In this document: piece after piece, positions 728 to 10,839 of the stretch
Numbering within the stretch: position 1 is the first letter of the stretch
Layout of the letters: each line of letters opens with the position of its first letter
Source of the DNA: Myxococcales bacterium
GTDB taxonomy: Bacteria > Myxococcota_A > Bradymonadia > REDH01
Direction: 5' to 3'
DNA length: 64,000 nucleotides
Assembly (NCBI GenBank): GCA_947496715.1
Contig: CANMDT010000003.1
Coordinates: 13,112-77,111 of the forward strand
Program-made: the position numbers and the translations under genes
Notes under the pieces: generated by a model
Database searches by the model: none
What the model was told of the DNA's origin: nothing
What the model saw: only the letters and a program-made list of their open reading frames with translations

Positions 728-1681
728 CTAGAGCGGCACTTCGATGCGCGACACCAGCTCCGCAATGACCGCCTCGGCGGCCGCACGGCTCGAACCCACC
801 ACCGACTCGCCGGTGCCCATCGATACACGATGCGACAGCACCGGACCGCACAGCTCCTTGATGTCCGACGGCAGCACATGTGACCTTCCGGCAACCAGCG
901 CTGCGGCCTTCGCCGCGCGCGTCAGCGCCAGCGCGCCGCGCGTCGAGACACCCACGGAGAGCCGCGCGCTCGTCCGCGTCGCCTGCACGATCGCAAGCAG
1001 GTAGTCGGCCAGCGAGTCATCGAACCGAACCTCGTCCACCGCTGCCATCAGGTCAGCGAGCTGCTCTGCACTCACCACCGCGCCGATGCGGAGCGTCGGA
1101 TCCGACGAGGTCCTCGCGAGCAGCAGCGCCCGCTCCACGGAGGTCGGCGGATAGCCCACCGTGACCCGCATCAGGAACCGGTCGAGCTGCGATTCCGGCA
1201 GCGGATAGGTGCCGTGCGACTCGAGCGGATTCTGCGTCGCGATCACCCAGAAAGGCGAGGGCAGATCCCGCGTCACATCGTCGGTCGAAACACGCCGCTC
1301 CGCCATCGCCTCCAGCAGGCTCGACTGCGTGCGGGGCGCGGTCCGGTTGATCTCATCTGCCAGCACCAGGTTGGCAAAAATCGGACCAGGCTTGAAGCGA
1401 AACTCTCCGCTCTTCTGGTCAAAGACGGTGACGCCGAGGATGTCGGTCGGAAGCAGATCGCTCGTGAACTGGATGCGCGAAAACTTGAGGCCGACCGAGA
1501 TCGCGAGCGCCTGCGCCAGCAGCGTCTTGCCAACGCCGGGCACATCCTCCACCAGCAGATGCCCTCCGGCCAGCAGGCAGATAACCGCCTTGCGTACCAC
1601 CGCCTCTTTGCCCTCGAACACCTTCAGCACATTCTGCTCGAGTGCCCTGATCCGAGCCACCCGCTGCTCCAAATCCTTCAT
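728..1681 (-). CDS. moxR: MoxR-family AAA+ ATPase
   Basis: Walker A EDVPGVGKT, RIQFTSDLLPTDI, LADEINR, ATQNPLE, YPLPESQLDRF motifs. Confidence 0.93.
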   Translation of the reverse strand: MKDLEQRVARIRALEQNVLKVFEGKEAVVRKAVICLLAGGHLLVEDVPGVGKTLLAQALAISVGLKFSRIQFTSDLLPTDILGVTVFDQKSGEFRFKPGPIFANLVLADEINRTAPRTQSSLLEAMAERRVSTDDVTRDLPSPFWVIATQNPLESHGTYPLPESQLDRFLMRVTVGYPPTSVERALLLARTSSDPTLRIGAVVSAEQLADLMAAVDEVRFDDSLADYLLAIVQATRTSARLSVGVSTRGALALTRAAKAAALVAGRSHVLPSDIKELCGPVLSHRVSMGTGESVVGSSRAAAEAVIAELVSRIEVPL

Positions 1682-1808
1682 CCGCTGCTCCTGTTCCGGC
1701 GACTGCGATGCAGACTCTAAGCCTTCTTCACAGCCCCGACAACCGCTTGCGATGCTTGCAGCATCAACCTGTTACGCATTACGCCAAGGGGAGCGTTCGC
1801 GGAGCCCA

Positions 1809-2948
1809 ATGACCACCTGTCCCACCAGAAGCCTGCTGCTCCAGACCCTCGCGCCGGGCCCCGTCGACGCAACGCAGCTCCAGGCGCTGCTCCGAAGCGC
1901 CGACCTCGACACCTTCGCCACCCTGGCCGCCGCCCATGCTGTCGCTCCGGCCGCGGCCGCCTCCCTCCACGCCAGCGCATCCCAGCTGCCTCCAGACTGG
2001 GCTGAATGGGCCGAGACCTGCCTCTTCGAGACCACTGCCCGCAACGGCTGGATCCTCCACCACCTCGCCGTCGTTACCGCCGCACTGCAAGATGCCGGCC
2101 TCCGCTTCTTCGCCCTCAAAGGCTGCGACCTCCTCCTCACAACCTACGAGCAGGTCGGCGCACGCCACCTCGACGACATCGACCTCCTCTTCCACCCCGA
2201 CGACCTCGCCGCTGCCTCCGCCGCCCTCCTCGCCGCCGGCTACCCGCTCCAGTCCGCCGGCACCGAGGTCCCCTTCGTCGATGGCACCTCCTACGCCGAC
2301 TATGTCGCCTCCCAGGCCGCCGACAAAATCCACCCCGCCGTCCATGAGAGCACCGACGGACTCTCCATCGAGCTCCACCGCATGCTCCCGGAGTCCGAGC
2401 AGCCTGCCGCAGACTTCGACCGGCTCTGGGAGAGCCGCATTACCAACGAGCGAGACGGCCTCCTCATCCCGCTCCTGCCGCGCGAAGAGCTCACCCGACA
2501 CCTCTGCATTCACGCCTTCGTGCAGCATCACGGCGACTGGCGCATCCTCGCCCGCCACCTTGCCGATGCGCTCCGGCTCCACCGCGCCGGTTGGCTCAGC
2601 GACACCGACGCTCCGGCTCAAACATCCCTCCCGCTCCGACTCACCAAAGGACTCGTAGCGCTCCACGCCAGCGCGGCGCCACCGGCCGCTGCCACGCTGA
2701 CGCGACTCGTCTTCCCGGGACCCCACGCGCAGCGGCTCTGGGACCAGTCCATCTTCCAGCGGCTCCTCCTGCAGCGCATCGCGCACGACGCCCTGCATCA
2801 GCCCCAGATGCTCCTCCGCAAGCTGCTGCCGAGCGACGACTACCTCGCCTATCACTACGGCGACGAGGCGCTCGCAGCAGGCCGCAAACGGCTCCTGCTC
2901 AAGCGGCTCGCCATGCTCCCCTTCCGGCCCTTCACAGGCGCCCGATGA
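1809..2948 (+). CDS. Nucleotidyltransferase family protein (type found beside lasso/PqqD loci)
   Basis: FFALKGCDL...Y...GARHLDDIDLL and IELH motifs; start moved to ATG 1809 because the ORF-track extension runs antisense over moxR. Confidence 0.8.
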   Translation: MTTCPTRSLLLQTLAPGPVDATQLQALLRSADLDTFATLAAAHAVAPAAAASLHASASQLPPDWAEWAETCLFETTARNGWILHHLAVVTAALQDAGLRFFALKGCDLLLTTYEQVGARHLDDIDLLFHPDDLAAASAALLAAGYPLQSAGTEVPFVDGTSYADYVASQAADKIHPAVHESTDGLSIELHRMLPESEQPAADFDRLWESRITNERDGLLIPLLPREELTRHLCIHAFVQHHGDWRILARHLADALRLHRAGWLSDTDAPAQTSLPLRLTKGLVALHASAAPPAAATLTRLVFPGPHAQRLWDQSIFQRLLLQRIAHDALHQPQMLLRKLLPSDDYLAYHYGDEALAAGRKRLLLKRLAMLPFRPFTGAR

Positions 2949-3928
2949 GCGGCCTGCGTCGCGCACAGCTCGCGGGGATCGACATCGTCTGGCGCCCGTG
3001 GCCCGACTCCGACCCGCTCTCTGCCATCCTCGACTGCCTCGGCGAAACGGAGGCCGCGCCAACCGCCACGCTGCACGTCTCGCTCCGGCATGCCGACGGG
3101 CCGCCTGCGCCGCTCCCCGATGCCAGCCATCGACCCCTCTTCTTCCACGGTCGCACCCGCGTCTTTGCCGCCGATGACCGCATCCTCCTCTGGGACGGCG
3201 CCAGCCTGCTCTCCCTCTCAGGAGACGGCAGCGAACTGAACGGCGAGGTCCACCCCGACTCGCTCGACGACGGCCACACCTTCAGCAGCGCCACCCTCCT
3301 CATCGCGCTCGCCGTCGCGCTCCGCCTCTGCCGCCGCTTCCACCTCCACGCCGGCCTCGTCGCGCTCGATGGCCTCGGCACCCTCCTCGTCGCCGGCGAC
3401 GCGGCGCACGGAAAGACCACAACCACCCTCTCCTTGCTCCGGCGCGGCGGCCTCCTCGCGGGCGACGACACCCTCTACATCGACCCCGCAGGCCGCTGCA
3501 TTTGGGGACTCCCCAAGCCCCTCAACCTCTCGCCAAAGACCGCGCAGGCCTTCGCCGGACTCACCGCGCGCCACCCCAACCCGACAGCCGCCGAGAGCGG
3601 CAAGAGCAGCTACCCGGCCGCCCTGCTCTTCCCCAGCGCAATCCGCGCCTCGCTCGGCTACCCCGACTGGCTTCTCTTCCCACGCATCACGGGCGAGTCC
3701 ACAACCCGCCTCAAGGCGCTCGCGCCTACCGACGCGCTCGGCAACCTCATGACCGCCTCCGCGCTTGTTGCAGTCGACGGCCTCGCACATGCCGAAGAAC
3801 ACCTCGCGGCCCTGCTCGCCCTTGTCTCCCACGGACGCTCCTACGAGCTCCTGCTGGGCCTCGACGCGCTTGAGCGGCCGGACTGCATCATCGACCTGCT
3901 CACCGCCGAGGCGAACAGCCCGCGCTAG
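2945..3928 (+). CDS. HPr kinase-like P-loop kinase
   Basis: FHLHAGLV...LLVAGDAAHGKTTTTL...LAGDDTLY (LHA motif, P-loop, DD pair); ATGA overlap with the nucleotidyltransferase stop. Confidence 0.78.
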   Translation: MSGLRRAQLAGIDIVWRPWPDSDPLSAILDCLGETEAAPTATLHVSLRHADGPPAPLPDASHRPLFFHGRTRVFAADDRILLWDGASLLSLSGDGSELNGEVHPDSLDDGHTFSSATLLIALAVALRLCRRFHLHAGLVALDGLGTLLVAGDAAHGKTTTTLSLLRRGGLLAGDDTLYIDPAGRCIWGLPKPLNLSPKTAQAFAGLTARHPNPTAAESGKSSYPAALLFPSAIRASLGYPDWLLFPRITGESTTRLKALAPTDALGNLMTASALVAVDGLAHAEEHLAALLALVSHGRSYELLLGLDALERPDCIIDLLTAEANSPR

Positions 3929-4212
3929 GCCAGCGCGACGACGACCAGCTTGTCTGCAGCCAGCGACGCGACCATCTCCGCGAGGTCTTCCGCCGCGACT
4001 GCGCCCGTCACCTCGAACTCCTCGACCAGCGCTGCGACGAGTTCTGACGCCAATTTCGAGCGACCGCCGAACCGCTTCCAGATGAAGACGCCGGTCACAT
4101 TCAGCTCGTAGTAAAACTTCGTGTCCATATCGAGCAGCACCCCCTTTCCGTCGGGCATCTCGGTGAGGATGACGCGGGCGCTGGGGGTGATGCGGGTGGT
4201 TTCGAGATCCAA
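3925..4212 (-). CDS. PqqD-family RiPP recognition element (RRE, lasso B1-like)
   Basis: 95 aa, VLLDMDTKFYYELNVTGVFIW...LVEEFEV...AAEDL...LAADKLV is the PqqD winged-helix pattern. Confidence 0.88.
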   Translation of the reverse strand: MDLETTRITPSARVILTEMPDGKGVLLDMDTKFYYELNVTGVFIWKRFGGRSKLASELVAALVEEFEVTGAVAAEDLAEMVASLAADKLVVVALA

Positions 4213-4219
4213 GGCAGAC

Positions 4220-4660
4220 TCACGCGGCAGAGGGTGGATAGACGAAGGTCACCTGATAGTCGGTGGACTCCCTCTCAAGCACAGGTTGCCCCCGAAGTTC
4301 AATCCAAGCATGCCCCTCCATCACGCCTTCGCGCTCGCGGAGCCCCATCTTGAAGACCACCTCCACGCCCCGCTCGCGCAGGCAGCGATACCGGATCAGG
4401 CTCCGCAGCAGGCAGGTTGTCCGCGTGACCCGCACGCGCCGCAGCACGAGTTCGGTCGCCCGCTCTACCGCCTCCAACGCCTCGGCCTCGCTGCGCCCCG
4501 CAAAGCGGGCCGTCGCGGGCGTCAGACCGCGGAAGAGGCGGTCCATGGGGAGCCTCTCGAGGGCAACAGGAAGCAGGCCCCGCAGCAGCACCACCTCTGC
4601 TACCAGAGCAGGCGCCGCTGCCACCTCCTGAAGGAGGCTAGGCAATCTTCTTCGGGCCAC
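4220..4660 (-). CDS. Lasso peptide B2-type leader peptidase (transglutaminase-like)
   Basis: TCLLRSL (Cys), F-x-MG, GHAWIE (His, Glu) catalytic pattern; directly upstream of the RRE. GTG start overlapping the rSAM stop, exact start uncertain. Confidence 0.85.
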   Translation of the reverse strand: MARRRLPSLLQEVAAAPALVAEVVLLRGLLPVALERLPMDRLFRGLTPATARFAGRSEAEALEAVERATELVLRRVRVTRTTCLLRSLIRYRCLRERGVEVVFKMGLREREGVMEGHAWIELRGQPVLERESTDYQVTFVYPPSAA

Positions 4661-5717
4661 CGCCGCAGCCGGTCACCTTCTCTGCATCGACCGCCCACTT
4701 GCCGCGCCAGCGCTCGCGCTTGGCCTCTACACCGCCGCGACCCTCGTCGGTCCAGTAGGGCTTCTTGAAGAGCTTCATGCAGAAGTTGCAGGGGAAGAGG
4801 TCCCACTCCGAGAGCGTGCCCTCTTTGATCGCCTTGTTCTTCTCGGTCTGCGCGTAGTGAATGACGTCGAGCATTTTCTGGTGCGCGTCTGCGAGGCTCA
4901 CCTCGTGCAGGTTGCCCAGCACATCTGCAGGCGCCCCTTCGGTCGGCACGCCAGAGTGCTGGCAGCAGAGCGTCAAGTTGCCCTTCGGATCCACGTGGAG
5001 GATCTCCGAGCGGAAGGGCTGACAGACGAAGAAGGGCTCTTCGCGGTAGAAGCTGTCCGTGAAGGAGACGGGCATGTGCAGGCTGCCCTGCAGCCGCGTG
5101 ATGGTGTCGAGCACCGTCCGCCACTCCGCCGTCGAGAGGAACATCTCCTCGTCGAGGTAGGTACCCGTCGGCTGGGTCATGCCAAACGACATTCGGCCAG
5201 AACCCAGGTGGCTCGCCATCATTGCCATCTGCTCAATCTGATGCGCGTTGTAGGCGTTGACCGTCATCTGCATGATGAAGGGAATCTTCCGCATCGTGCA
5301 GATGGCCACCGCCTGCATGACGTTCCGGAAGCTGCCGGGGCCGCGCACCTTGTCGTGCACCTCCTCCGTCGCGCCATCAATCGAGAAGTTCATGGCGGTG
5401 CAGGTCGAAAGCCGCTCGGGCTTTTCGTCGAGTTTTGCCACCATCCTCGAGAACTTCTCCGAGTTGGTCACCACATGCCACGTGTAGCCGCGGGCCACGA
5501 TGGCATCGATGATCTCGTAGAACTGCGGGTGCAGCGAGGGCTCGCCACCCGTCAGTCCAACATGCTTGCAGCGGTAGAGCTGCCAGGCCTCGTCCAGCAC
5601 ATTGCAGATGAGGTCGAGCGAGAGGTCCTGCGACTTAATCTCGGGGTCCCGGAGGCAGTGCTTGCAGTTAAGCTGGCACCGGTCGGTGATGTGAAAGACA
5701 ACCCAAGTTGGATTCAT
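4638..5717 (-). CDS. Radical SAM protein with C-terminal SPASM/twitch-like Cys region
   Basis: CQLNCKHC (CX3CX2C), LTGGEPSLHP, NFSIDG, C-terminal CQPF...HVDPKGNLTLCC...CNFC; AGAGG RBS upstream. Confidence 0.92.
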   Translation of the reverse strand: MNPTWVVFHITDRCQLNCKHCLRDPEIKSQDLSLDLICNVLDEAWQLYRCKHVGLTGGEPSLHPQFYEIIDAIVARGYTWHVVTNSEKFSRMVAKLDEKPERLSTCTAMNFSIDGATEEVHDKVRGPGSFRNVMQAVAICTMRKIPFIMQMTVNAYNAHQIEQMAMMASHLGSGRMSFGMTQPTGTYLDEEMFLSTAEWRTVLDTITRLQGSLHMPVSFTDSFYREEPFFVCQPFRSEILHVDPKGNLTLCCQHSGVPTEGAPADVLGNLHEVSLADAHQKMLDVIHYAQTEKNKAIKEGTLSEWDLFPCNFCMKLFKKPYWTDEGRGGVEAKRERWRGKWAVDAEKVTGCGGGPKKIA

Positions 5718-5735
5718 AGGACCTCTGAGCGGACG

Positions 5736-7406
5736 CTAGCGCGCGATCGCCGGATTGAGAGTGGTGGCTTCGATGAGACCCGGGCGGGGACCACCATCGA
5801 GGACCTCGTTGGTGGTGATGCGGGTGGTGAGACCGGAGGTGACATTGATCACCATGATCTCGGTCTGAACAACGCTGGCCGAGGCAAAGATGCGCTCGGT
5901 CACGACCAGGTTCCCGTTGGGGAAGAAGGCGGGCGAGCTGTCGTTGGTCGAGCCCGAGACGGGCGTCGGCGTACCCGAGGTGCGGTGCGTCGTGCAGTTG
6001 AATGCGTTGCTGTAGAGCTGCGTCGCGCCGCCGCCGAGGTCCTTCGTCCAGATCGCCGAGGTGCCGGCCGGGCTGATAGCGGGCGCACCGAGGTAGCCGG
6101 TGAGGCTCGCGGTGCCATTGCCGGCGCCGTCAACACCGACCGAGAAGAGCGTCACAGAGCCGCCAGCAGCCTGCTTGGTGTAGATGACCGTGGCCGGGTC
6201 GCACTCGGCGATCGCAGGGTCGGCTTCGCCGTTGCCGCCGTTATCGACGAGCACGGTGCAGGCGGCACCGCTCGCGTCGAGGGGCTGGGTGAAGAGGCCG
6301 AAGTCGCCGCTGTAGAAGTTGGTGAAGACGATTGCCGACTCATCGGGAACCACCGTGAAGCCGCCGCTGAGGAGGCCGGTCGGGTCGGGGTTGCCCTGAT
6401 AGGCGAGCTCGGGGCAGACCGGGGTGAGCTGCTCGATGGCGCCCGTCTCAATGGCGAGCTTGTAGATGCCAACGTTGGTGTTCGCGGGCGCCGAGCAATC
6501 GGTCACCTTCATCGAGAAGTAGACGGAGCGGCCGTCGGGCGACCAACGAGCGGCAAGCTTCTGACCAGGAAGGTTCGTCACGCGGCGCTCATCTGTGCCG
6601 TCGGCGCGGATGACGTAGAGCTGCGAATCCTGCTGCTCAGCACAGGCCGAGCCGGGCGTACGCACGAAGAGGATCCAGGGGTCCGCGGTCACGGGGACTG
6701 CAACGCACACGCCGCCGTCGCAGTTGGTGCCGGTGGGGCAGGCCGTCTCGGTCTCTGCGTCGCGGCACTCACAGCTGGTGCCGATGTCGTAGGCGGTGCG
6801 GGCCGTCTCGACCCGGTCGTTACCGCGGCAGAAGGGGGCAGGCGCCGCGTCGCAGATGGTCGCGTCGCAGATGCAGGTGCCGGCTTGGTCGACGAACGTG
6901 TCGAGGCAGTCGCCGCAGGAGTCGGGGCCGGCCACAACATCGCAGGCGCGGTTGTCGGGCTCGCAGTCGCGGGCGTTCAGGGTGTCGCACTCCAAGCAGG
7001 CCGCGTTGTTCGCACAATCCGAGTCGGCGCAGTCGGCGTTGCCGTCGCCATCGTCGTCCGTGCCGTTGCCGCAGCTCTCTTGGATGCCGCCGGTGTCGGT
7101 TCCGGTGTCGACCGTCGTGTCCTCGACTGCGGTGTCGACCTCGGTGTCCTCGATGTTGGTGTCTTCCTCGATCGTGTCGGCCGTGCCCGTATCCGTGGAG
7201 GTGTCCGCGGTGGTGTCGGGCGCGGTATCCTCGCAGCCCTCACCGGTGAAGAGGTTGCACGAGGTGCCCGTATCCTCGGTCTTCTCCGACGTTTCGTCTC
7301 CGCAGGCAACGAGTGCGAGCGAGGCGACGAGGGTCGCGGCCGTGAGGGTCGAAGGCCCGCGAAGCAGGGCGAGCAGAGAGGTCGAATTCAGCGTCGTGCG
7401 GGCCAT
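5736..7406 (-). CDS. Lipoprotein with Asp/Thr-rich linker, Cys-rich modules and TolB/PD40-like beta-propeller
   Basis: Lipobox LVAC; DT-rich linker; CGNGTDDDGDGNADCADSDC; QLYVIRADG, RWSPDGRS, PAISPAG, PAFFPNG propeller repeats. Start set to ATG 7406. Confidence 0.75.
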   Translation of the reverse strand: MARTTLNSTSLLALLRGPSTLTAATLVASLALVACGDETSEKTEDTGTSCNLFTGEGCEDTAPDTTADTSTDTGTADTIEEDTNIEDTEVDTAVEDTTVDTGTDTGGIQESCGNGTDDDGDGNADCADSDCANNAACLECDTLNARDCEPDNRACDVVAGPDSCGDCLDTFVDQAGTCICDATICDAAPAPFCRGNDRVETARTAYDIGTSCECRDAETETACPTGTNCDGGVCVAVPVTADPWILFVRTPGSACAEQQDSQLYVIRADGTDERRVTNLPGQKLAARWSPDGRSVYFSMKVTDCSAPANTNVGIYKLAIETGAIEQLTPVCPELAYQGNPDPTGLLSGGFTVVPDESAIVFTNFYSGDFGLFTQPLDASGAACTVLVDNGGNGEADPAIAECDPATVIYTKQAAGGSVTLFSVGVDGAGNGTASLTGYLGAPAISPAGTSAIWTKDLGGGATQLYSNAFNCTTHRTSGTPTPVSGSTNDSSPAFFPNGNLVVTERIFASASVVQTEIMVINVTSGLTTRITTNEVLDGGPRPGLIEATTLNPAIAR

Positions 7407-7607
7407 GACAATCTCCAGCGAAAAACGAGGTCCAAGAGGGGTGCGCAGCGCGCGAGGTTTACGTTTGACTCCCGCGTAGCACAGCGGCAGAGATGAGATC
7501 AAAAGAAGATCTGATGCGACAGCCCGCTACGTATGACAGAATTTGTCACCACGAGCCGCCCAGACTGTCTCTTTCCGTCACCGAAGCGACGGGGAAACGA
7601 TGACACG

Positions 7608-7648
7608 AAAAAGGGCCGACAGGTCTCTCGCGAGACTTGTTCGGCCCT
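7608..7648 (-). terminator. Rho-independent terminator downstream of the precursor peptide gene
   Basis: Plus strand AAAAA-GGGCCGACAGGTCTC-tcgc-GAGACTTGTTCGGCCCT: long hairpin followed by a T5 tract on the minus strand, 29 bp after the precursor stop. Confidence 0.75.
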
Positions 7649-7676
7649 GTCAGGCGAACCGAGGTACGAGGTCCGA

Positions 7677-7877
7677 CTAGCCGGAAGCCGTGAGGCCGCC
7701 AGCCGAAACGCCGCCGCCCGAGAAGAGCGTAACGCGCGCCACAGAGCGCTTCTTCGCGAGGCTCGGGGCCTCGTAAGCGCGACGACCCATCGATACAGCC
7801 TCTTCGAGGCCGACCGACTCAGCGACCACATCCGTGGTCGAATCCTGTTGCTTTGGCATTGGCCGTTGCTTGCTCAT
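7677..7877 (-). CDS. Putative RiPP precursor peptide, 66 aa (lasso-type leader, Gly/Ser/Ala-rich core)
   Basis: AAGGAG RBS before ATG 7877; MSKQRPMPKQQDSTTDVVAESVGLEEAVSMGRRAYEAPSLAKKRSVARVTL-FSGGGVSAGGLTASG; YxxPxL and penultimate Thr; followed by a terminator; lies within an RRE/peptidase/rSAM locus. Confidence 0.8.
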   Translation of the reverse strand: MSKQRPMPKQQDSTTDVVAESVGLEEAVSMGRRAYEAPSLAKKRSVARVTLFSGGGVSAGGLTASG

Positions 7878-7954
7878 GTCTCGGCTCCTTCGAAGGGGTC
7901 GTGACCCCGATGGGTGTTTGCGAATCGTCTCGTCAATCCGACGTGAGTAGACAA

Positions 7955-7994: not shown

Positions 7995-8795
7995 TTAGTA
8001 ATGCGCCAACGATCCTTCCTTGAGAACCGTCCGGACTGCCGCTCGAACCGAAAACAGCGCCACCGTTGACGCAACAGCTACCAAGACTCCTAGCCGAATC
8101 GCAACCGGCGCCAACTCGGCCCAACTGCTGCCAGCCAGCGCCAGCCGAACCCCGTCCACCACCGGTGCGATAGGAACCCATGCCCCGACGGCGCCCACCG
8201 CGGCCGGCAGCTCCGTCCGCGGCATAAACACACCTCCCGTTACCACCGCCGAGATGTGCATGGCCCGGTTCAACGGATCTCCGGCCTTGTAACGGAGTAG
8301 CAGCGCCGCCGAGATCAGACCGACCGCGAGGAAGAGGAGCATTCCGCCGACGCCGAAGAAGGCCGCGTAGACCCAGGCGACCGGAGAGGGTGCAGGCGCC
8401 ATGAACAGGCTCGCCAGCACAACAATCGCGCTCGACCGCATCACGCTCACCGACAGATCGAAGGTCGGCATCGCCGTCATCAGCGCGGGCAACGAGTGGC
8501 CCGTCATCAGGCAGGCCTCGAGCATGCCCGTCGTCTGGTGGCGACGCAGTTTGCTCGTAAAGGCGCCCAGCGAGGTCCACATGAGGTCCATCGCCGCAAA
8601 ACCGCAGGCGAGAAACGGCAAGATGCCCAACTGGCCCGCCCCCATCCCTTCGCCCACCAGCTTGGAGAGCCCGTGCAGCAGAAAGAACATCAGTCCCAGA
8701 CCGACAACTCGGTTGAAGTGAACCAGCGGATAGCTTTGCGCTTCGCGGAAATCATGGAGCCAGAAGGCACGAAGGAGCTTCCATTGCGCCCTCAT
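7995..8795 (-). CDS. ABC-2 type exporter permease
   Basis: Six hydrophobic segments, TGMLEACLMT and GVFMP...LP...WVP ABC-2 pattern; overlaps the ATPase stop (ATGA). Confidence 0.85.
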   Translation of the reverse strand: MRAQWKLLRAFWLHDFREAQSYPLVHFNRVVGLGLMFFLLHGLSKLVGEGMGAGQLGILPFLACGFAAMDLMWTSLGAFTSKLRRHQTTGMLEACLMTGHSLPALMTAMPTFDLSVSVMRSSAIVVLASLFMAPAPSPVAWVYAAFFGVGGMLLFLAVGLISAALLLRYKAGDPLNRAMHISAVVTGGVFMPRTELPAAVGAVGAWVPIAPVVDGVRLALAGSSWAELAPVAIRLGVLVAVASTVALFSVRAAVRTVLKEGSLAHY

Positions 8796-9610
8796 GCCTC
8801 TTCCTCCGCCTGCTCACGCTCAAAGACAGCATCGGCCGCGGCTGCAACCGCAGCGAAGCCGCCGGACGCCACCACGCGACCGCCGTCGAGGAGATGGACC
8901 GTGTCGCAGAGCGCCTCCAACTCTGCCATGTCGTGAGAGGCAATGAGAATGGCCTTCCCCTGCTCTTTGGCGAGCTGCAGACAGAGCCGCTTGAACGATT
9001 CACGACGGCCGGGATCGAGCCCCGTACTTGCCTCGTCGAGCAGCAGCAGCACCGGGTCGGCGATCAGCGCGCGGCCCATCGACAGCCGCTGTCGCATGCC
9101 CGATGAGTAGGTCCGGAAGGGACGATCGGCCTGCCGCGTAAGACCGACGCGGGCCAACGCATCGGCAACCGCTTCGGCCCGCGACCCACCATCCTTTTGC
9201 GCCAGTTCCGCGAAGAAGGCGAGGTTCTCACGGCCTGTCAGCCGCAGGTTGAAGGAGCGGTCCTCACGCGAGACCCAGCCGATACGCCGACGCTGCGTGC
9301 CACCCCCGGCGGTCGGCGCCGAACCATCCACAAGGAGCTCCCCCGAGGTCGGCATCACAAGGCCTGCAACGCAGCGCATGAGCGTACTTTTGCCGGCCCC
9401 GTTGGGCCCGATAAGCCCCACAATCTGCCCTGCCCCGATCTCGAACGAGATGCCATGAAGCACCTCGACCGGCGGCGGCCGGCGAAAGCGCAGAAGCTCC
9501 CTCACGCGAGGCGTGACCGTGAAGGTCTTGCAGACCTCGTGTAACCGCAGCACCGGACGCGCCCCTGCGGGAGAGAGCGCCCCTGGCTGCAACTCCCCCG
9601 CCTGAAGCAC
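8792..9610 (-). CDS. ABC exporter ATP-binding protein
   Basis: GPNGAGKST, YSSGMRQR, LLLLDE, SH switch; GTG start overlaps the mrp stop by 1 nt. Confidence 0.92.
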   Translation of the reverse strand: MLQAGELQPGALSPAGARPVLRLHEVCKTFTVTPRVRELLRFRRPPPVEVLHGISFEIGAGQIVGLIGPNGAGKSTLMRCVAGLVMPTSGELLVDGSAPTAGGGTQRRRIGWVSREDRSFNLRLTGRENLAFFAELAQKDGGSRAEAVADALARVGLTRQADRPFRTYSSGMRQRLSMGRALIADPVLLLLDEASTGLDPGRRESFKRLCLQLAKEQGKAILIASHDMAELEALCDTVHLLDGGRVVASGGFAAVAAAADAVFEREQAEEEA

Positions 9611-10839
9611 TACGAGCGCTTGAACGAGAAGAGTCCCGGCTTGGGCGCGCTTCCCGGCGAGGCAAGCGGCTTGGCATCCGTGACCCGCTGCGCGAGCTCG
9701 AGGAAGGCCTTCGTCACTGCACTGTCGGGGCTGCCGACGACAACGGGGCGACCCTCGTCACCCATCTTCCGCACGGCGCCATCGAGCGGGATTTCGCCGA
9801 GCATTGTCGTGCCGAGGCGAGCCGCCTCGCGCGTGCCGCCGCCCTGCCCGAAGATGTAGGTGCGCTCCTCGTCGGAGACGATTTTGTCGAGCGCCGCGGC
9901 GCTCTGCTCGTCGCCCTTGGCGCGCAGGCTCGCAGCAAGGTTGCGGGCCTCAGCTGCACCGGGCCAGAGGTAATAGGACATGTTCTCGACCATGCCGAGC
10001 ACATCCACATTGAGCTGGGTAAACATGCGGAGGCCGCGCGCTGCATCGATGAGCGCGAGGTCGCTGGGGGTGGTCACGATAATCGCCCCATCGACAGGCA
10101 CCGTCTGCGCAAGACTCAGCTGCGCATCGCCCGTGCCGGGAGGCATGTCGACGATGAGGTAGTCGATGCCGCGCCAGTCCACATCCTGCAGAAACTGACG
10201 GATGATGCCGGTGACGATGGGCCCGCGCCAGATGACCGGCGCATCGTCGTCCATGAGGAAGCCGAGCGACATGAGCTTGAGACCGTGGGCCTCGACCGGG
10301 ATGATGCGCTTCTCGCGCACTGCCGGACGCACATTGATACCGAGCAGCGTGGGAACGCTCGGACCGTAGATATCGACATCGAGCAGGCCAACGTGGAAGC
10401 CAAGACGCGCGAGTGCGAGCGCAAGGTTCACAGCCACCGTCGACTTGCCGACACCGCCCTTGCCCGAGGCGACCGCGATGACGCGACCAACGCCCTCGAG
10501 CGCCTTGGGTGCCTGCGATGCGCCCTTGGCAGCGGCTGGTGCAGCAGCCGCCTCGGGAGCCGGGGCCGCGCTGGCCTGATAGCCTTCTACGAAGCTCGTG
10601 ACCCGAGCCTCCTTCACGCCGTCAACCTTCTCGGCTGCCGTCGCAACTGCATCCTCAAGCGCCCAGCGCTGCTCCTTGGTGTGCTCCGCTTTGAACTTGA
10701 GAACCACGGAGGCGATGCCGCCCGCGACATCGACCTTTTCGAGGATGTGGGCCTCCAGCAGTCCTTCACCCGTGAGCGGGTCAACGACGGCAGAAACCTG
10801 ATCAATCACTTCGCCCTTGAGCGCAAAATCGTCGGCCAT
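9610..10839 (-). CDS. mrp: Mrp/ApbC (NBP35-family) P-loop ATPase, cysteine-free variant
   Basis: SGKGGVGKST, DVDIYGPS, VIWRGP, DMPPGTGD, VTTP, ENMS motifs with N-terminal DUF59-like domain. Confidence 0.88.
   Translation of the reverse strand: MADDFALKGEVIDQVSAVVDPLTGEGLLEAHILEKVDVAGGIASVVLKFKAEHTKEQRWALEDAVATAAEKVDGVKEARVTSFVEGYQASAAPAPEAAAAPAAAKGASQAPKALEGVGRVIAVASGKGGVGKSTVAVNLALALARLGFHVGLLDVDIYGPSVPTLLGINVRPAVREKRIIPVEAHGLKLMSLGFLMDDDAPVIWRGPIVTGIIRQFLQDVDWRGIDYLIVDMPPGTGDAQLSLAQTVPVDGAIIVTTPSDLALIDAARGLRMFTQLNVDVLGMVENMSYYLWPGAAEARNLAASLRAKGDEQSAAALDKIVSDEERTYIFGQGGGTREAARLGTTMLGEIPLDGAVRKMGDEGRPVVVGSPDSAVTKAFLELAQRVTDAKPLASPGSAPKPGLFSFKRS

What the first reader, a model, noticed from the sequence alone, without database searches (positions are those of the whole stretch)
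4638..5717. Radical SAM enzyme with reduced SPASM-like Cys set and no fused RRE
Seen: CX3CX2C plus C-terminal CQPF, the HVDPKGNLTLCC hairpin motif and CNFC, about five candidate auxiliary ligands rather than a full SPASM set; no N-terminal RRE, consistent with use of the stand-alone PqqD two genes downstream. Its gene overlaps the B2 peptidase start. Inference: it is the class-defining peptide-modifying enzyme and may represent an uncharacterised subfamily.
Basis: partly seen in the sequence, partly recalled or inferred. Interest (0 to 1): 0.62.

Follow-up and report, generated by a model that had tools for sequence, protein, structure and literature searches.

The report
Twitch-type radical SAM peptide maturase
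This is a real, expressed radical SAM enzyme with one extra iron-sulfur cluster site plus a spare invariant cysteine; it founds a large unstudied enzyme family that works with lasso-peptide leader-handling proteins to mature a small peptide by chemistry still unknown.

Summary
The 359-aa ORF (4638-5717, minus) has CX3CX2C at C14/C18/C21, no N-terminal domain, and five C-terminal Cys (C232, C251, C252, C310, C313). All five are invariant in 119 relatives and kept in at least 105 of 117 distant sequences. The tail is not a reduced SPASM domain. It is a BtrN/SkfB-type Twitch domain: Cys before a beta-hairpin, Cys after it, CxxC after helix alpha2', which makes one auxiliary cluster. The fifth Cys (C252) sits where the proven H-atom donor Cys223 of the epimerase EpeE/YydG sits, but only the motif is shared, not detectable homology. 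No curated family claims the protein. Synteny rSAM-B2-PqqD-HprK-like kinase holds in 18-19 of 21 informative loci. Forty-two distinct Cys-poor cores follow a lasso-type leader (Y-17, P-14, L-12, T-2). Distant relatives are natural rSAM-PqqD fusions, which supports use of the stand-alone RRE. Lake metatranscriptomes carry one contig spanning precursor, PD40 gene, rSAM and the B2 start. dN/dS is 0-0.15. The chemistry is unresolved. I favour Cys-dependent epimerization (about 0.3) over Ser/Thr-2 oxidation or cross-linking. Verdict: an uncharacterised family, a new variant of a known enzyme kind.

The parts
4638..5717 (-). Radical SAM enzyme gene, 359 aa
   Evidence: ORF. PF04055 scores 78.4 bits against a cut-off of 29.5. 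AF2 pLDDT 91.6. dN/dS 0-0.15 against L001/L002/L003/L005. Covered by RNA contigs.
5655..5678 (-). CX3CX2C motif (C14, C18, C21) for the SAM-cleaving [4Fe-4S] cluster
   Evidence: Read from the sequence. Invariant in 119 sequences.
5541..5549 (-). GGE SAM-binding motif (G57 G58 E59)
   Evidence: Invariant columns.
4734..5075 (-). Twitch-type auxiliary-cluster domain (about residues 215-328): hairpin 239-242/247-249, helix 275-299, helix 309-316
   Evidence: AF2 secondary structure. Sub-threshold PF13186 match to its first half only, 17.8 bits against 21.5. Fold matches to SuiB, SkfB, BlsE, anSME and PqqE.
4962..5024 (-). C232-x13-G246-x4-C251-C252 hairpin motif. C232 and C251 are predicted Aux ligands; C252 is a predicted non-ligand catalytic Cys.
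   Evidence: Invariant. In the PqqE alignment C251 pairs with the hairpin-end Cys and C252 pairs with His. The layout matches YydG C206...C222-C223.
4779..4790 (-). C310-N-F-C313, predicted Aux ligands after helix alpha2'
   Evidence: Invariant. Located at the N-terminus of helix 309-316. BtrN/SkfB place two Cys after alpha2' (PMC6231123).
4695..4733 (-). Conserved basic/aromatic tail G329...A332-x-R334-x-R336-W337-x-G339-x-W341, function unknown
   Evidence: Invariant or nearly invariant columns, with lower pLDDT of 52-61.
4220..4660 (-). Lasso-type B2 leader peptidase (transglutaminase-like)
   Evidence: NF033537 scores 55.1 bits against a cut-off of 33; PF13471.
3925..4212 (-). Stand-alone PqqD-family RRE (B1)
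   Evidence: PF05402 scores 56.1 bits; weak matches to lasso PqqD models.
7677..7877 (-). 66-aa precursor: leader Y-17/P-14/L-12/T-2, predicted core FSGGGVSAGGLTASG
   Evidence: 59 homologous precursor ORFs lie next to rSAM homologues.
5736..7502 (-). PD40 beta-propeller lipoprotein between the precursor and the rSAM (probable ATG at 7406)
   Evidence: PF07676 and a lipobox LVAC. PD40 recurs in L023, as a PqqD-PD40 fusion in L078, and in P0218.
2945..3928 (+). HprK/ScmC-like P-loop protein, convergent with the operon
   Evidence: Weak PF07475/TIGR04352 matches. Conserved next to rSAM homologues, and immediately upstream of the rSAM in the distant branch.
1809..2948 (+). NTP_transf_5 nucleotidyltransferase-like protein
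   Evidence: PF14907 scores 103 bits. Present in 11 of 21 informative loci.
4452..7919 (-). Stretch covered by a single metatranscriptome contig: precursor, PD40, rSAM and the B2 start
   Evidence: Run X12, 3471-nt contig with 15 mismatches. X14 contigs cover 4528-7882.

Best explanation
The gene encodes a two-cluster radical SAM peptide maturase. C14, C18 and C21 hold the SAM-cleaving [4Fe-4S] cluster. The C-terminal domain is a Twitch domain in which C232 (before the beta-hairpin), C251 (after it) and C310/C313 (after helix alpha2') hold one auxiliary cluster. The fifth invariant Cys, C252, is not a ligand but a catalytic residue beside that cluster. The enzyme has no RRE of its own and receives its substrate from the stand-alone PqqD protein. 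That protein binds the YxxP leader of the 66-aa precursor and also serves the B2 peptidase, which cuts after T-2/L-1. The rSAM acts on the N-terminal part of a short, Gly/Ser/Thr-rich and mostly Cys-free core. Shown here: the motifs and their invariance, the predicted fold, synteny, natural rSAM-PqqD fusions, co-transcription and purifying selection. Inferred: which Cys bind iron, and the chemistry. My preferred chemistry, at about 0.3, is as follows. 5'-deoxyadenosyl radical abstracts a C-alpha hydrogen. C252 then returns a hydrogen to the opposite face, giving a D-residue. The auxiliary cluster re-reduces the thiyl radical, as in EpeE/YydG.
For: All eight Cys are invariant. The AF2 model has pLDDT 91.6 and shows the hairpin and alpha2' topology, which matches the published Twitch definition and BtrN/SkfB ligand placement (PMC6231123; PMC9012708). 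The SPASM profile matches only its first half and stays below threshold. The best fold matches are peptide-modifying or Twitch/SPASM rSAMs: SuiB, SkfB, BlsE, anSME and PqqE. B2, PqqD and the HprK-like gene are each present in 18-19 of 21 loci with at least 2.5 kb downstream, against 0 of 8 loci with unrelated rSAMs. Precursor ORFs sit next to rSAM homologues 59 times. Relatives P0177, P0189 and P0200 carry the same Cys motif fused to a C-terminal PqqD domain. An RNA contig spans 4452-7919. dN/dS is 0-0.15, and L001 is 100% identical in protein at dS 0.30. For epimerization specifically: the alignment of YydG (PDB 8ai1) shows C206...G-x4-C222-C223...CxxC, so the proven H-donor Cys223 (PMC13012085; PMC8326336) is the second Cys of the same doublet. 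YydG also lacks an RRE and has a Twitch-type domain. The cores are hypervariable, with no conserved cross-link partners; only 7 of 42 contain Cys and none contains Trp. That suits a side-chain-independent reaction.
Against: No coordinates were available, so Cys-Cys distances in the model were not measured and the ligand assignment rests on topology. Homology to YydG is not detectable. TIGR04078 finds nothing in this genome, and hhalign of the family profile against the YydG C-terminal part gives probability 0.16. A CC doublet at this position also occurs in 2 of about 15 unrelated rSAMs. YydG's proton-relay Asp210 has no positional equivalent. The only conserved core residue is Ser/Thr at position 2 (39 of 42), which points at least as well to chemistry on that residue. 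There is no product mass or any biochemical data.
Confidence: 0.55

Rival explanations
1. The enzyme is a BtrN/anSME-like dehydrogenase. It abstracts a C-beta hydrogen from the conserved Ser/Thr at core position 2. The fully ligated auxiliary cluster takes the second electron, giving a formylglycine or beta-keto residue. After B2 frees the N-terminal amine, that residue could condense with it into an N-terminal heterocycle.
For: Ser/Thr at core position 2 in 39 of 42 cores is the only conserved core feature. The Cys spacing C-x18-C...C-x2-C fits a fully ligated Twitch cluster, and such clusters are thought to accept an electron in two-electron oxidations by BtrN, PqqE and SuiB (PMC9012708). 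anSME is among the fold matches.
Against: This model gives invariant C252 no role. Ser/Thr-2 could equally be the kinase target or a B2 specificity determinant. Three of 42 cores lack it. The heterocycle step is pure speculation.
Confidence: 0.22
2. The enzyme is a macrocyclase that replaces the lasso cyclase. It forms a C-C, C-O or C-S cross-link within the core, for example an ether from Ser/Thr-2 oxygen to a carbon of another residue.
For: The best fold match is the cross-linking enzyme SuiB, and SkfB is also high. The locus has the lasso leader machinery but no cyclase. One subfamily of cores carries two Cys, with the motif CVFDPPGSC.
Against: No pair of core residues is conserved. Cys occurs in only 7 of 42 cores, Trp in none and Tyr in one. 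Known cross-linkers usually carry full SPASM domains and need defined partner residues.
Confidence: 0.15
3. It is not a maturase of the small peptide. Either it is a cofactor or protein maturase, for example acting on the adjacent PD40 lipoprotein, or it binds two auxiliary clusters with non-Cys ligands as a degenerate SPASM enzyme.
For: The best NCBIfam scores are to cofactor maturases MftC, AhbD and PqqE. A PD40 gene lies between the precursor and the rSAM, and PD40 is fused with rSAM-PqqD in P0218. His241, His254 and His279 are nearly invariant within the close family.
Against: All those scores are 65-80 bits against cut-offs of 265-500 and cover only the core barrel. The PD40 gene is absent from most syntenic loci, whereas the precursor is nearly always adjacent. 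The His residues are not kept in the distant branch. PD40 in the window has a lipoprotein signal, so it is exported away from a cytoplasmic Fe-S enzyme.
Confidence: 0.06

Closest known systems
EpeE/YydG, the epipeptide radical SAM epimerase of Bacillus subtilis (PDB 8AI1-8AI6)
   Same: The RS motif is at residues 14-21 in YydG as I recall it (not checked here). There is no RRE and a single auxiliary cluster in a Twitch-type domain. The hairpin motif ends in a Cys-Cys doublet followed by CxxC, and the second Cys of the doublet (Cys223) is the H-atom donor.
   Different: No detectable homology: no TIGR04078 hit and hhalign probability 0.16. There is no equivalent of Asp210. EpeE is reported to be leader-independent, whereas this enzyme is tied to a PqqD RRE and a lasso-type leader. 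The hosts and substrates are different.
BtrN and SkfB (Twitch-domain radical SAM enzymes)
   Same: Beta-hairpin plus alpha2' topology, with one Cys before the hairpin, one after it, and two after alpha2'. SkfB is a RiPP maturase and a top fold match.
   Different: SkfB has an N-terminal RRE, a CXC rather than CxxC, and makes a thioether to a substrate Cys that most cores here lack. BtrN acts on a sugar. Sequence identity is 12-20%.
PqqE with PqqD (PQQ pathway)
   Same: An rSAM served in trans by a stand-alone PqqD peptide chaperone (PMC10906245, title and abstract). It is the best PDB sequence match, E 1e-17, with the alignment reaching the hairpin.
   Different: [quoted passage not shown] TIGR02109 scores 66.7 bits against a cut-off of 381. 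The substrate and product differ.
Lasso peptide clusters with split B1/B2 and an HprK-like kinase plus nucleotidyltransferase (paeninodin type)
   Same: A leader with Y-17, P-14, L-12 and T-2, together with PqqD B1, B2 peptidase, HprK-like kinase, NTP_transf_5 and an ABC exporter.
   Different: There is no Asn-synthetase-like cyclase in the locus or in its syntenic relatives. Most cores lack an Asp/Glu acceptor at positions 7-9. A radical SAM enzyme takes the cyclase's place.
SynChlorMet (SCM) cassette: ScmC, ScmD, ScmE, ScmF
   Same: It combines an HprK-like protein (neighbours hit PF27840 ScmC weakly), a PqqD-like protein (TIGR04248, 30 bits) and rSAM enzymes (ScmE/ScmF, about 73 bits).
   Different: All scores are far below the cut-offs of 100-400 bits. 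ScmE and ScmF are SPASM proteins. SCM has no B2 peptidase that I know of (own knowledge, not tested).

Membership tests
Radical SAM superfamily (PF04055) | CX3CX2C cluster motif and a Pfam score above the gathering threshold | tested here: met
   C14/C18/C21 are present. PF04055 scores 78.4 bits against 29.5. The GGE motif is invariant.
SPASM domain (PF13186) | Seven-Cys motif CX9-15GX4C-gap-CX2CX5CX3C-gap-C binding two auxiliary clusters | tested here: not met
   The first half is present (C232-x13-G-x4-C251). The second half is only CX2C, with no X5CX3C and no conserved distal Cys. PF13186 scores 17.8 bits against 21.5, and only profile positions 4-44 of 67 match.
Twitch domain | Truncated SPASM fold: beta-hairpin then helix alpha2' | tested here: met
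   The AF2 model has strands 239-242 and 247-249 and helix 275-299 at pLDDT above 90. The definition comes from PMC6231123.
Twitch domain | Exactly one auxiliary Fe-S cluster, with ligands before the hairpin, after the hairpin and after alpha2' | not testable with these tools
   The positions of C232, C251/C252 and C310/C313 fit.
YydG/EpeE epimerase family (TIGR04078) | HMM score of at least 300 bits | tested here: not met
   No match at E<=0.001 anywhere in this genome. hhalign against the YydG C-terminal part gives probability 0.16.
YydG/EpeE epimerase family (TIGR04078) | Non-ligand H-donor Cys directly after the hairpin ligand Cys | tested here: met
   YydG C222-C223 compared with the window's C251-C252. 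This is a resemblance of motif only.
Cofactor maturases PqqE, MftC, AhbD, NirJ | Score above the NCBIfam equivalog cut-off | tested here: not met
   Scores are 79.6 against 265 (MftC), 66.7 against 381 (PqqE), 72.2 against 500 (AhbD) and 54.7 against 515 (NirJ).
Lasso peptide biosynthetic system | B1 RRE and B2 peptidase | tested here: met
   NF033537 scores 55.1 bits against 33; PF05402 scores 56.1 bits.
Lasso peptide biosynthetic system | Asn-synthetase-like lasso cyclase in the cluster | tested here: not met
   PF00733 matches lie only on other contigs, C11 and C22. Syntenic loci L021-L024 have none.
Sactipeptide/ranthipeptide maturases | Cys donor residues in the core for a thioether | tested here: not met
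   The window core has no Cys, and only 7 of 42 distinct cores contain Cys.

The most novel reading that the evidence does not exclude
The rSAM and its HprK-like partner form the conserved catalytic core of an undescribed RiPP class of several hundred clusters, in Myxococcota and beyond. In this class the lasso leader-recognition and cleavage machinery was recruited to radical chemistry in place of lasso cyclization. The rSAM would be a second, independently evolved Twitch-type, Cys-dependent peptide epimerase, or else it would perform new chemistry on the conserved N-terminal x-Ser/Thr-Gly of the core.
Probability: 0.35. Interest if true: 0.78.

Novelty: new variant of a known kind. Interest (0 to 1): 0.62.

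Why it matters
Radical SAM enzymes with Twitch or SPASM domains are the main source of new RiPP chemistry, yet function cannot be read from sequence. This family has at least 540 relatives and no curated model. It is expressed in lakes. It combines parts previously seen apart: a lasso leader, B1 and B2; a Twitch rSAM; and an HprK-like P-loop protein. It gives a clean test of what a fifth, non-ligand Cys next to an auxiliary cluster does, and of whether one RRE can serve both a protease and a radical enzyme. Cultured Polyangium strains carry the cluster, so the product and reaction can be determined directly.

Tried and rejected
- **Full or degenerate SPASM domain:** rejected, because the second half of the motif is missing and Pfam scores below threshold.
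- **Membership of a named rSAM family:** rejected for the query and for 10 distant relatives.
- **Homology to YydG:** a YydG-like protein was fetched (L106) and the PDB YydG alignment was read. The motif is shared, but the profile comparison is insignificant.
- **PDB sequence search with the C-terminal domain alone:** a single sequence and a 15-sequence profile both found nothing.
- **Thioether chemistry:** rejected for most members, because the cores lack Cys.
- **Compositionally foreign gene:** Here GC3 is 0.867, like the neighbours. The low total GC of 0.614 comes from amino-acid content.
- **Literature searches:** no paper on the system, ScmC or SynChlorMet was found. The RRE-Finder paper only mentions about 300 lasso-type RREs that co-occur with rSAM enzymes and treats them as false positives.
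- **Model coordinates:** they could not be read in the Python box, so no Cys distance check was made.
- **Papers not held:** PMC7398046 and PMC6485343. My recollection that anSME Asp277 follows its hairpin Cys could not be verified.

Full report
**Observation.** The minus-strand ORF 4638-5717 encodes 359 residues from an ATG. It begins MNPTWVVFHITDRC14QLNC18KHC21, so the radical SAM motif sits 13 residues from the N-terminus and leaves no room for an N-terminal RRE. Pfam finds only PF04055, at residues 10-165 with 78.4 bits. A sixth Cys, C351, lies in a variable, low-confidence tail. In 119 relatives of 48-81% identity, C14, C18, C21, C232, C251, C252, C310 and C313 are all invariant. In an alignment of the query with 116 more distant representatives (E<1e-30, about 25-50% identity), the five C-terminal Cys are kept in 105-114 of the 117 sequences. 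The B2 gene (4220-4660) overlaps the rSAM stop by 23 nt if GTG 4660 is the start and by 8 nt with TTG 4645. With GTG 4624 there is no overlap. Because the B2 profile match starts at residue 18, one of these three must be the start.

**The gene is real and in use.** Against relatives from other lakes, dN/dS is 0.04 (L002, L003) and 0.15 (L005). L001 encodes an identical protein although about a quarter of synonymous sites differ, with dS 0.30. In a lake metatranscriptome (X12), one 3471-nt contig covers 4452-7919. That span runs from just upstream of the precursor through the PD40 gene and the whole rSAM into B2. A second run (X14) covers 4528-7882 in pieces. Neither run covers the ABC genes or the convergent kinase and nucleotidyltransferase genes, which argues against DNA carry-over. 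Contig depth is a poor measure of expression, however.

**The C-terminal domain.** The AlphaFold2 model has mean pLDDT 91.6. It places a beta-hairpin at 239-242/247-249, a long helix at 275-299 and a short helix at 309-316. C232 therefore precedes the hairpin, C251/C252 follow it, and C310/C313 follow the long helix. The SkfB structure paper defines the SPASM motif as CX9-15GX4C-gap-CX2CX5CX3C-gap-C. It defines the Twitch domain as the truncated form with one cluster, made of the hairpin followed by alpha2'. BtrN and SkfB use one Cys after the hairpin and two after alpha2', and BtrN also uses one before the hairpin.

The window protein has C232-x13-G246-x4-C251 and then only CxxC. The Pfam SPASM model matches only its first 44 of 67 positions and scores 17.8 bits against a threshold of 21.5. 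HMMER aligns C251 with the Cys that ends the PqqE hairpin motif, and aligns C252 with a His. Foldseek's best PDB matches are SuiB (E 5e-14, TM 0.62), SkfB, viperin, BlsE, DesII, anSME and PqqE, all at 12-20% identity. The C-terminal domain alone finds nothing in the PDB by sequence. I conclude that this is a Twitch domain with four ligands (C232, C251, C310, C313), not a reduced SPASM domain.

**The fifth cysteine.** EpeE/YydG is a radical SAM peptide epimerase with no RRE, one auxiliary cluster in an extended Twitch domain, and Cys223 as the H-atom donor that quenches the C-alpha radical. I fetched a YydG-like protein (L106) and used it to print the alignment of the PDB chain. After allowing for the 25-residue tag, YydG reads C206-PGYD210-IVYHHDG-EIYP-C222-C223 and later C-GV-C. 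The proven donor is therefore the second Cys of a Cys-Cys doublet at the end of the same hairpin motif, exactly as C252 is here.

This is a resemblance, not membership. The YydG model TIGR04078 finds nothing in this genome. hhalign of the family profile against the YydG C-terminal part gives probability 0.16. A doublet at this place also occurs in 2 of about 15 unrelated rSAMs.

**Context.** No curated family claims the protein. The best NCBIfam hit is the mycofactocin maturase at 79.6 bits against a cut-off of 265, and the same holds for ten distant relatives. The family is large: 540 relatives at E<1e-5 in one search and 133 clusters (50% identity) at E<1e-30 in another. Named members come from Polyangium, Minicystis and Bradymonadia. 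A survey found the family in 11 of 401 genomes of the phylum, in single copy and patchily distributed.

Gene order rSAM-B2-PqqD-(NTP_transf_5)-HprK/ScmC-like holds in Polyangium aurulentum and in metagenome contigs. Of 21 loci with at least 2.5 kb downstream, 18 have B2, 19 have PqqD and 18 have the HprK-like gene. None of 8 loci with unrelated rSAMs has any of them. In the 30-35% identity branch the HprK-like gene sits immediately upstream of the rSAM, with B2 and usually PqqD within about 5 kb. No Asn-synthetase-like cyclase lies on the window's contig or in the syntenic loci.

**Substrate.** A profile built from the first precursors finds 59 small ORFs next to rSAM homologues. The leader is [RK]xPYExPR[ILV]xKKRSVxRxTL, that is Y-17, P-14, L-12 and T-2, which is the lasso B1/B2 recognition pattern. 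The 42 distinct predicted cores are 13-20 residues long and rich in Gly, Ser, Thr, Ala, Pro and Met. Position 1 is usually Phe, Val or Leu. Position 2 is Ser or Thr in 39 of 42 cores, and position 3 is Gly in 25. Only 7 cores contain Cys, none contains Trp and one contains Tyr. This excludes thioether formation as the general reaction and gives no conserved pair for a cross-link.

**Use of the stand-alone RRE.** Five distant relatives (P0177, P0189, P0200, P0230, P0250) are natural fusions of this rSAM type with a C-terminal PqqD domain. P0218 reads PD40-rSAM-PqqD. Three of the fusions show the same C...G-x4-CC and CxxC motifs.

**Mechanism and odds.** I am fairly sure, at about 0.85, that this is a Twitch-type, two-cluster peptide maturase acting on this precursor with PqqD. 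The chemistry is open.
- **Epimerization with C252 as donor (about 0.3).** It explains the invariant fifth Cys and the tolerance of hypervariable cores.
- **Oxidation of Ser/Thr-2 (about 0.22).** It explains the one conserved core residue and a fully ligated electron-accepting cluster.
- **A cross-link (about 0.15).** It would fill the gap left by the missing cyclase but lacks conserved partner residues.
- **A non-peptide substrate or a second cluster with non-Cys ligands.** This is unlikely.

**Novelty.** The kind of enzyme, a Twitch rSAM RiPP maturase, is known. This family, its partner set and its substrate are uncharacterised. The only trace in the literature I found is the RRE-Finder remark that about 300 lasso-type discrete RREs co-occur with rSAM enzymes and were counted as false positives.

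Noticed in passing
window 5736-7502; L023 4988-6217; L078 6340-7488: PD40 beta-propeller proteins recur in these clusters. In the window it is a lipoprotein between the precursor and the rSAM. In L078 it is a PqqD-membrane segment-PD40 fusion. Representative P0218 reads PD40-rSAM-PqqD. The propeller may be a working part of the system.
   Followed up: partly
window 7600-7678 (-): A strong stem-loop followed by UUUUU sits directly after the precursor stop (-33.8 kcal/mol, z -2.96). RNA still reads through, and X14 depth is 43 on the precursor against 8-17 downstream. This looks like partial termination that sets precursor excess.
   Followed up: partly
window 1500-3700 and 8000-9900: Neither metatranscriptome run has contigs on the convergent NTP_transf_5 and HprK-like genes or on the ABC exporter genes, although the precursor-to-B2 stretch is covered.
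   Followed up: no
window 4695-4733 (-), rSAM residues 329-341: A nearly invariant basic/aromatic tail, G..A.R.RW.G.W (consensus GPxAxRERWRGAW), follows the Twitch domain with lower model confidence. It may be a docking motif for PqqD, B2 or the HprK-like protein.
   Followed up: no
L031, L061, L067, L071, L089, L095: A subfamily of precursors has cores ending in a two-Cys motif (for example VSGQECVFDPPGTC) instead of the common ...GLTxxG ending. These may carry a disulfide or a different modification.
   Followed up: no
L041 and L042 (rSAM at L041 4172-5224): This is an exception to the synteny. A 51%-identical rSAM has no B2, PqqD or precursor detected within 4-6 kb. It sits divergent from an AsnB-like gene starting MCG and next to an ABC transporter.
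   Followed up: partly
L001 8001-9077 vs window 4638-5717: The rSAM proteins are 100% identical although about 25% of synonymous sites differ (dS 0.30). This is unusually strong constraint on every residue.
   Followed up: yes
L075-L103 (30-35% identity branch): The HprK-like P-loop gene lies immediately upstream of the rSAM in many loci of other, lower-GC organisms. The rSAM and HprK-like pair is therefore conserved more deeply than the link to NTP_transf_5.
   Followed up: partly
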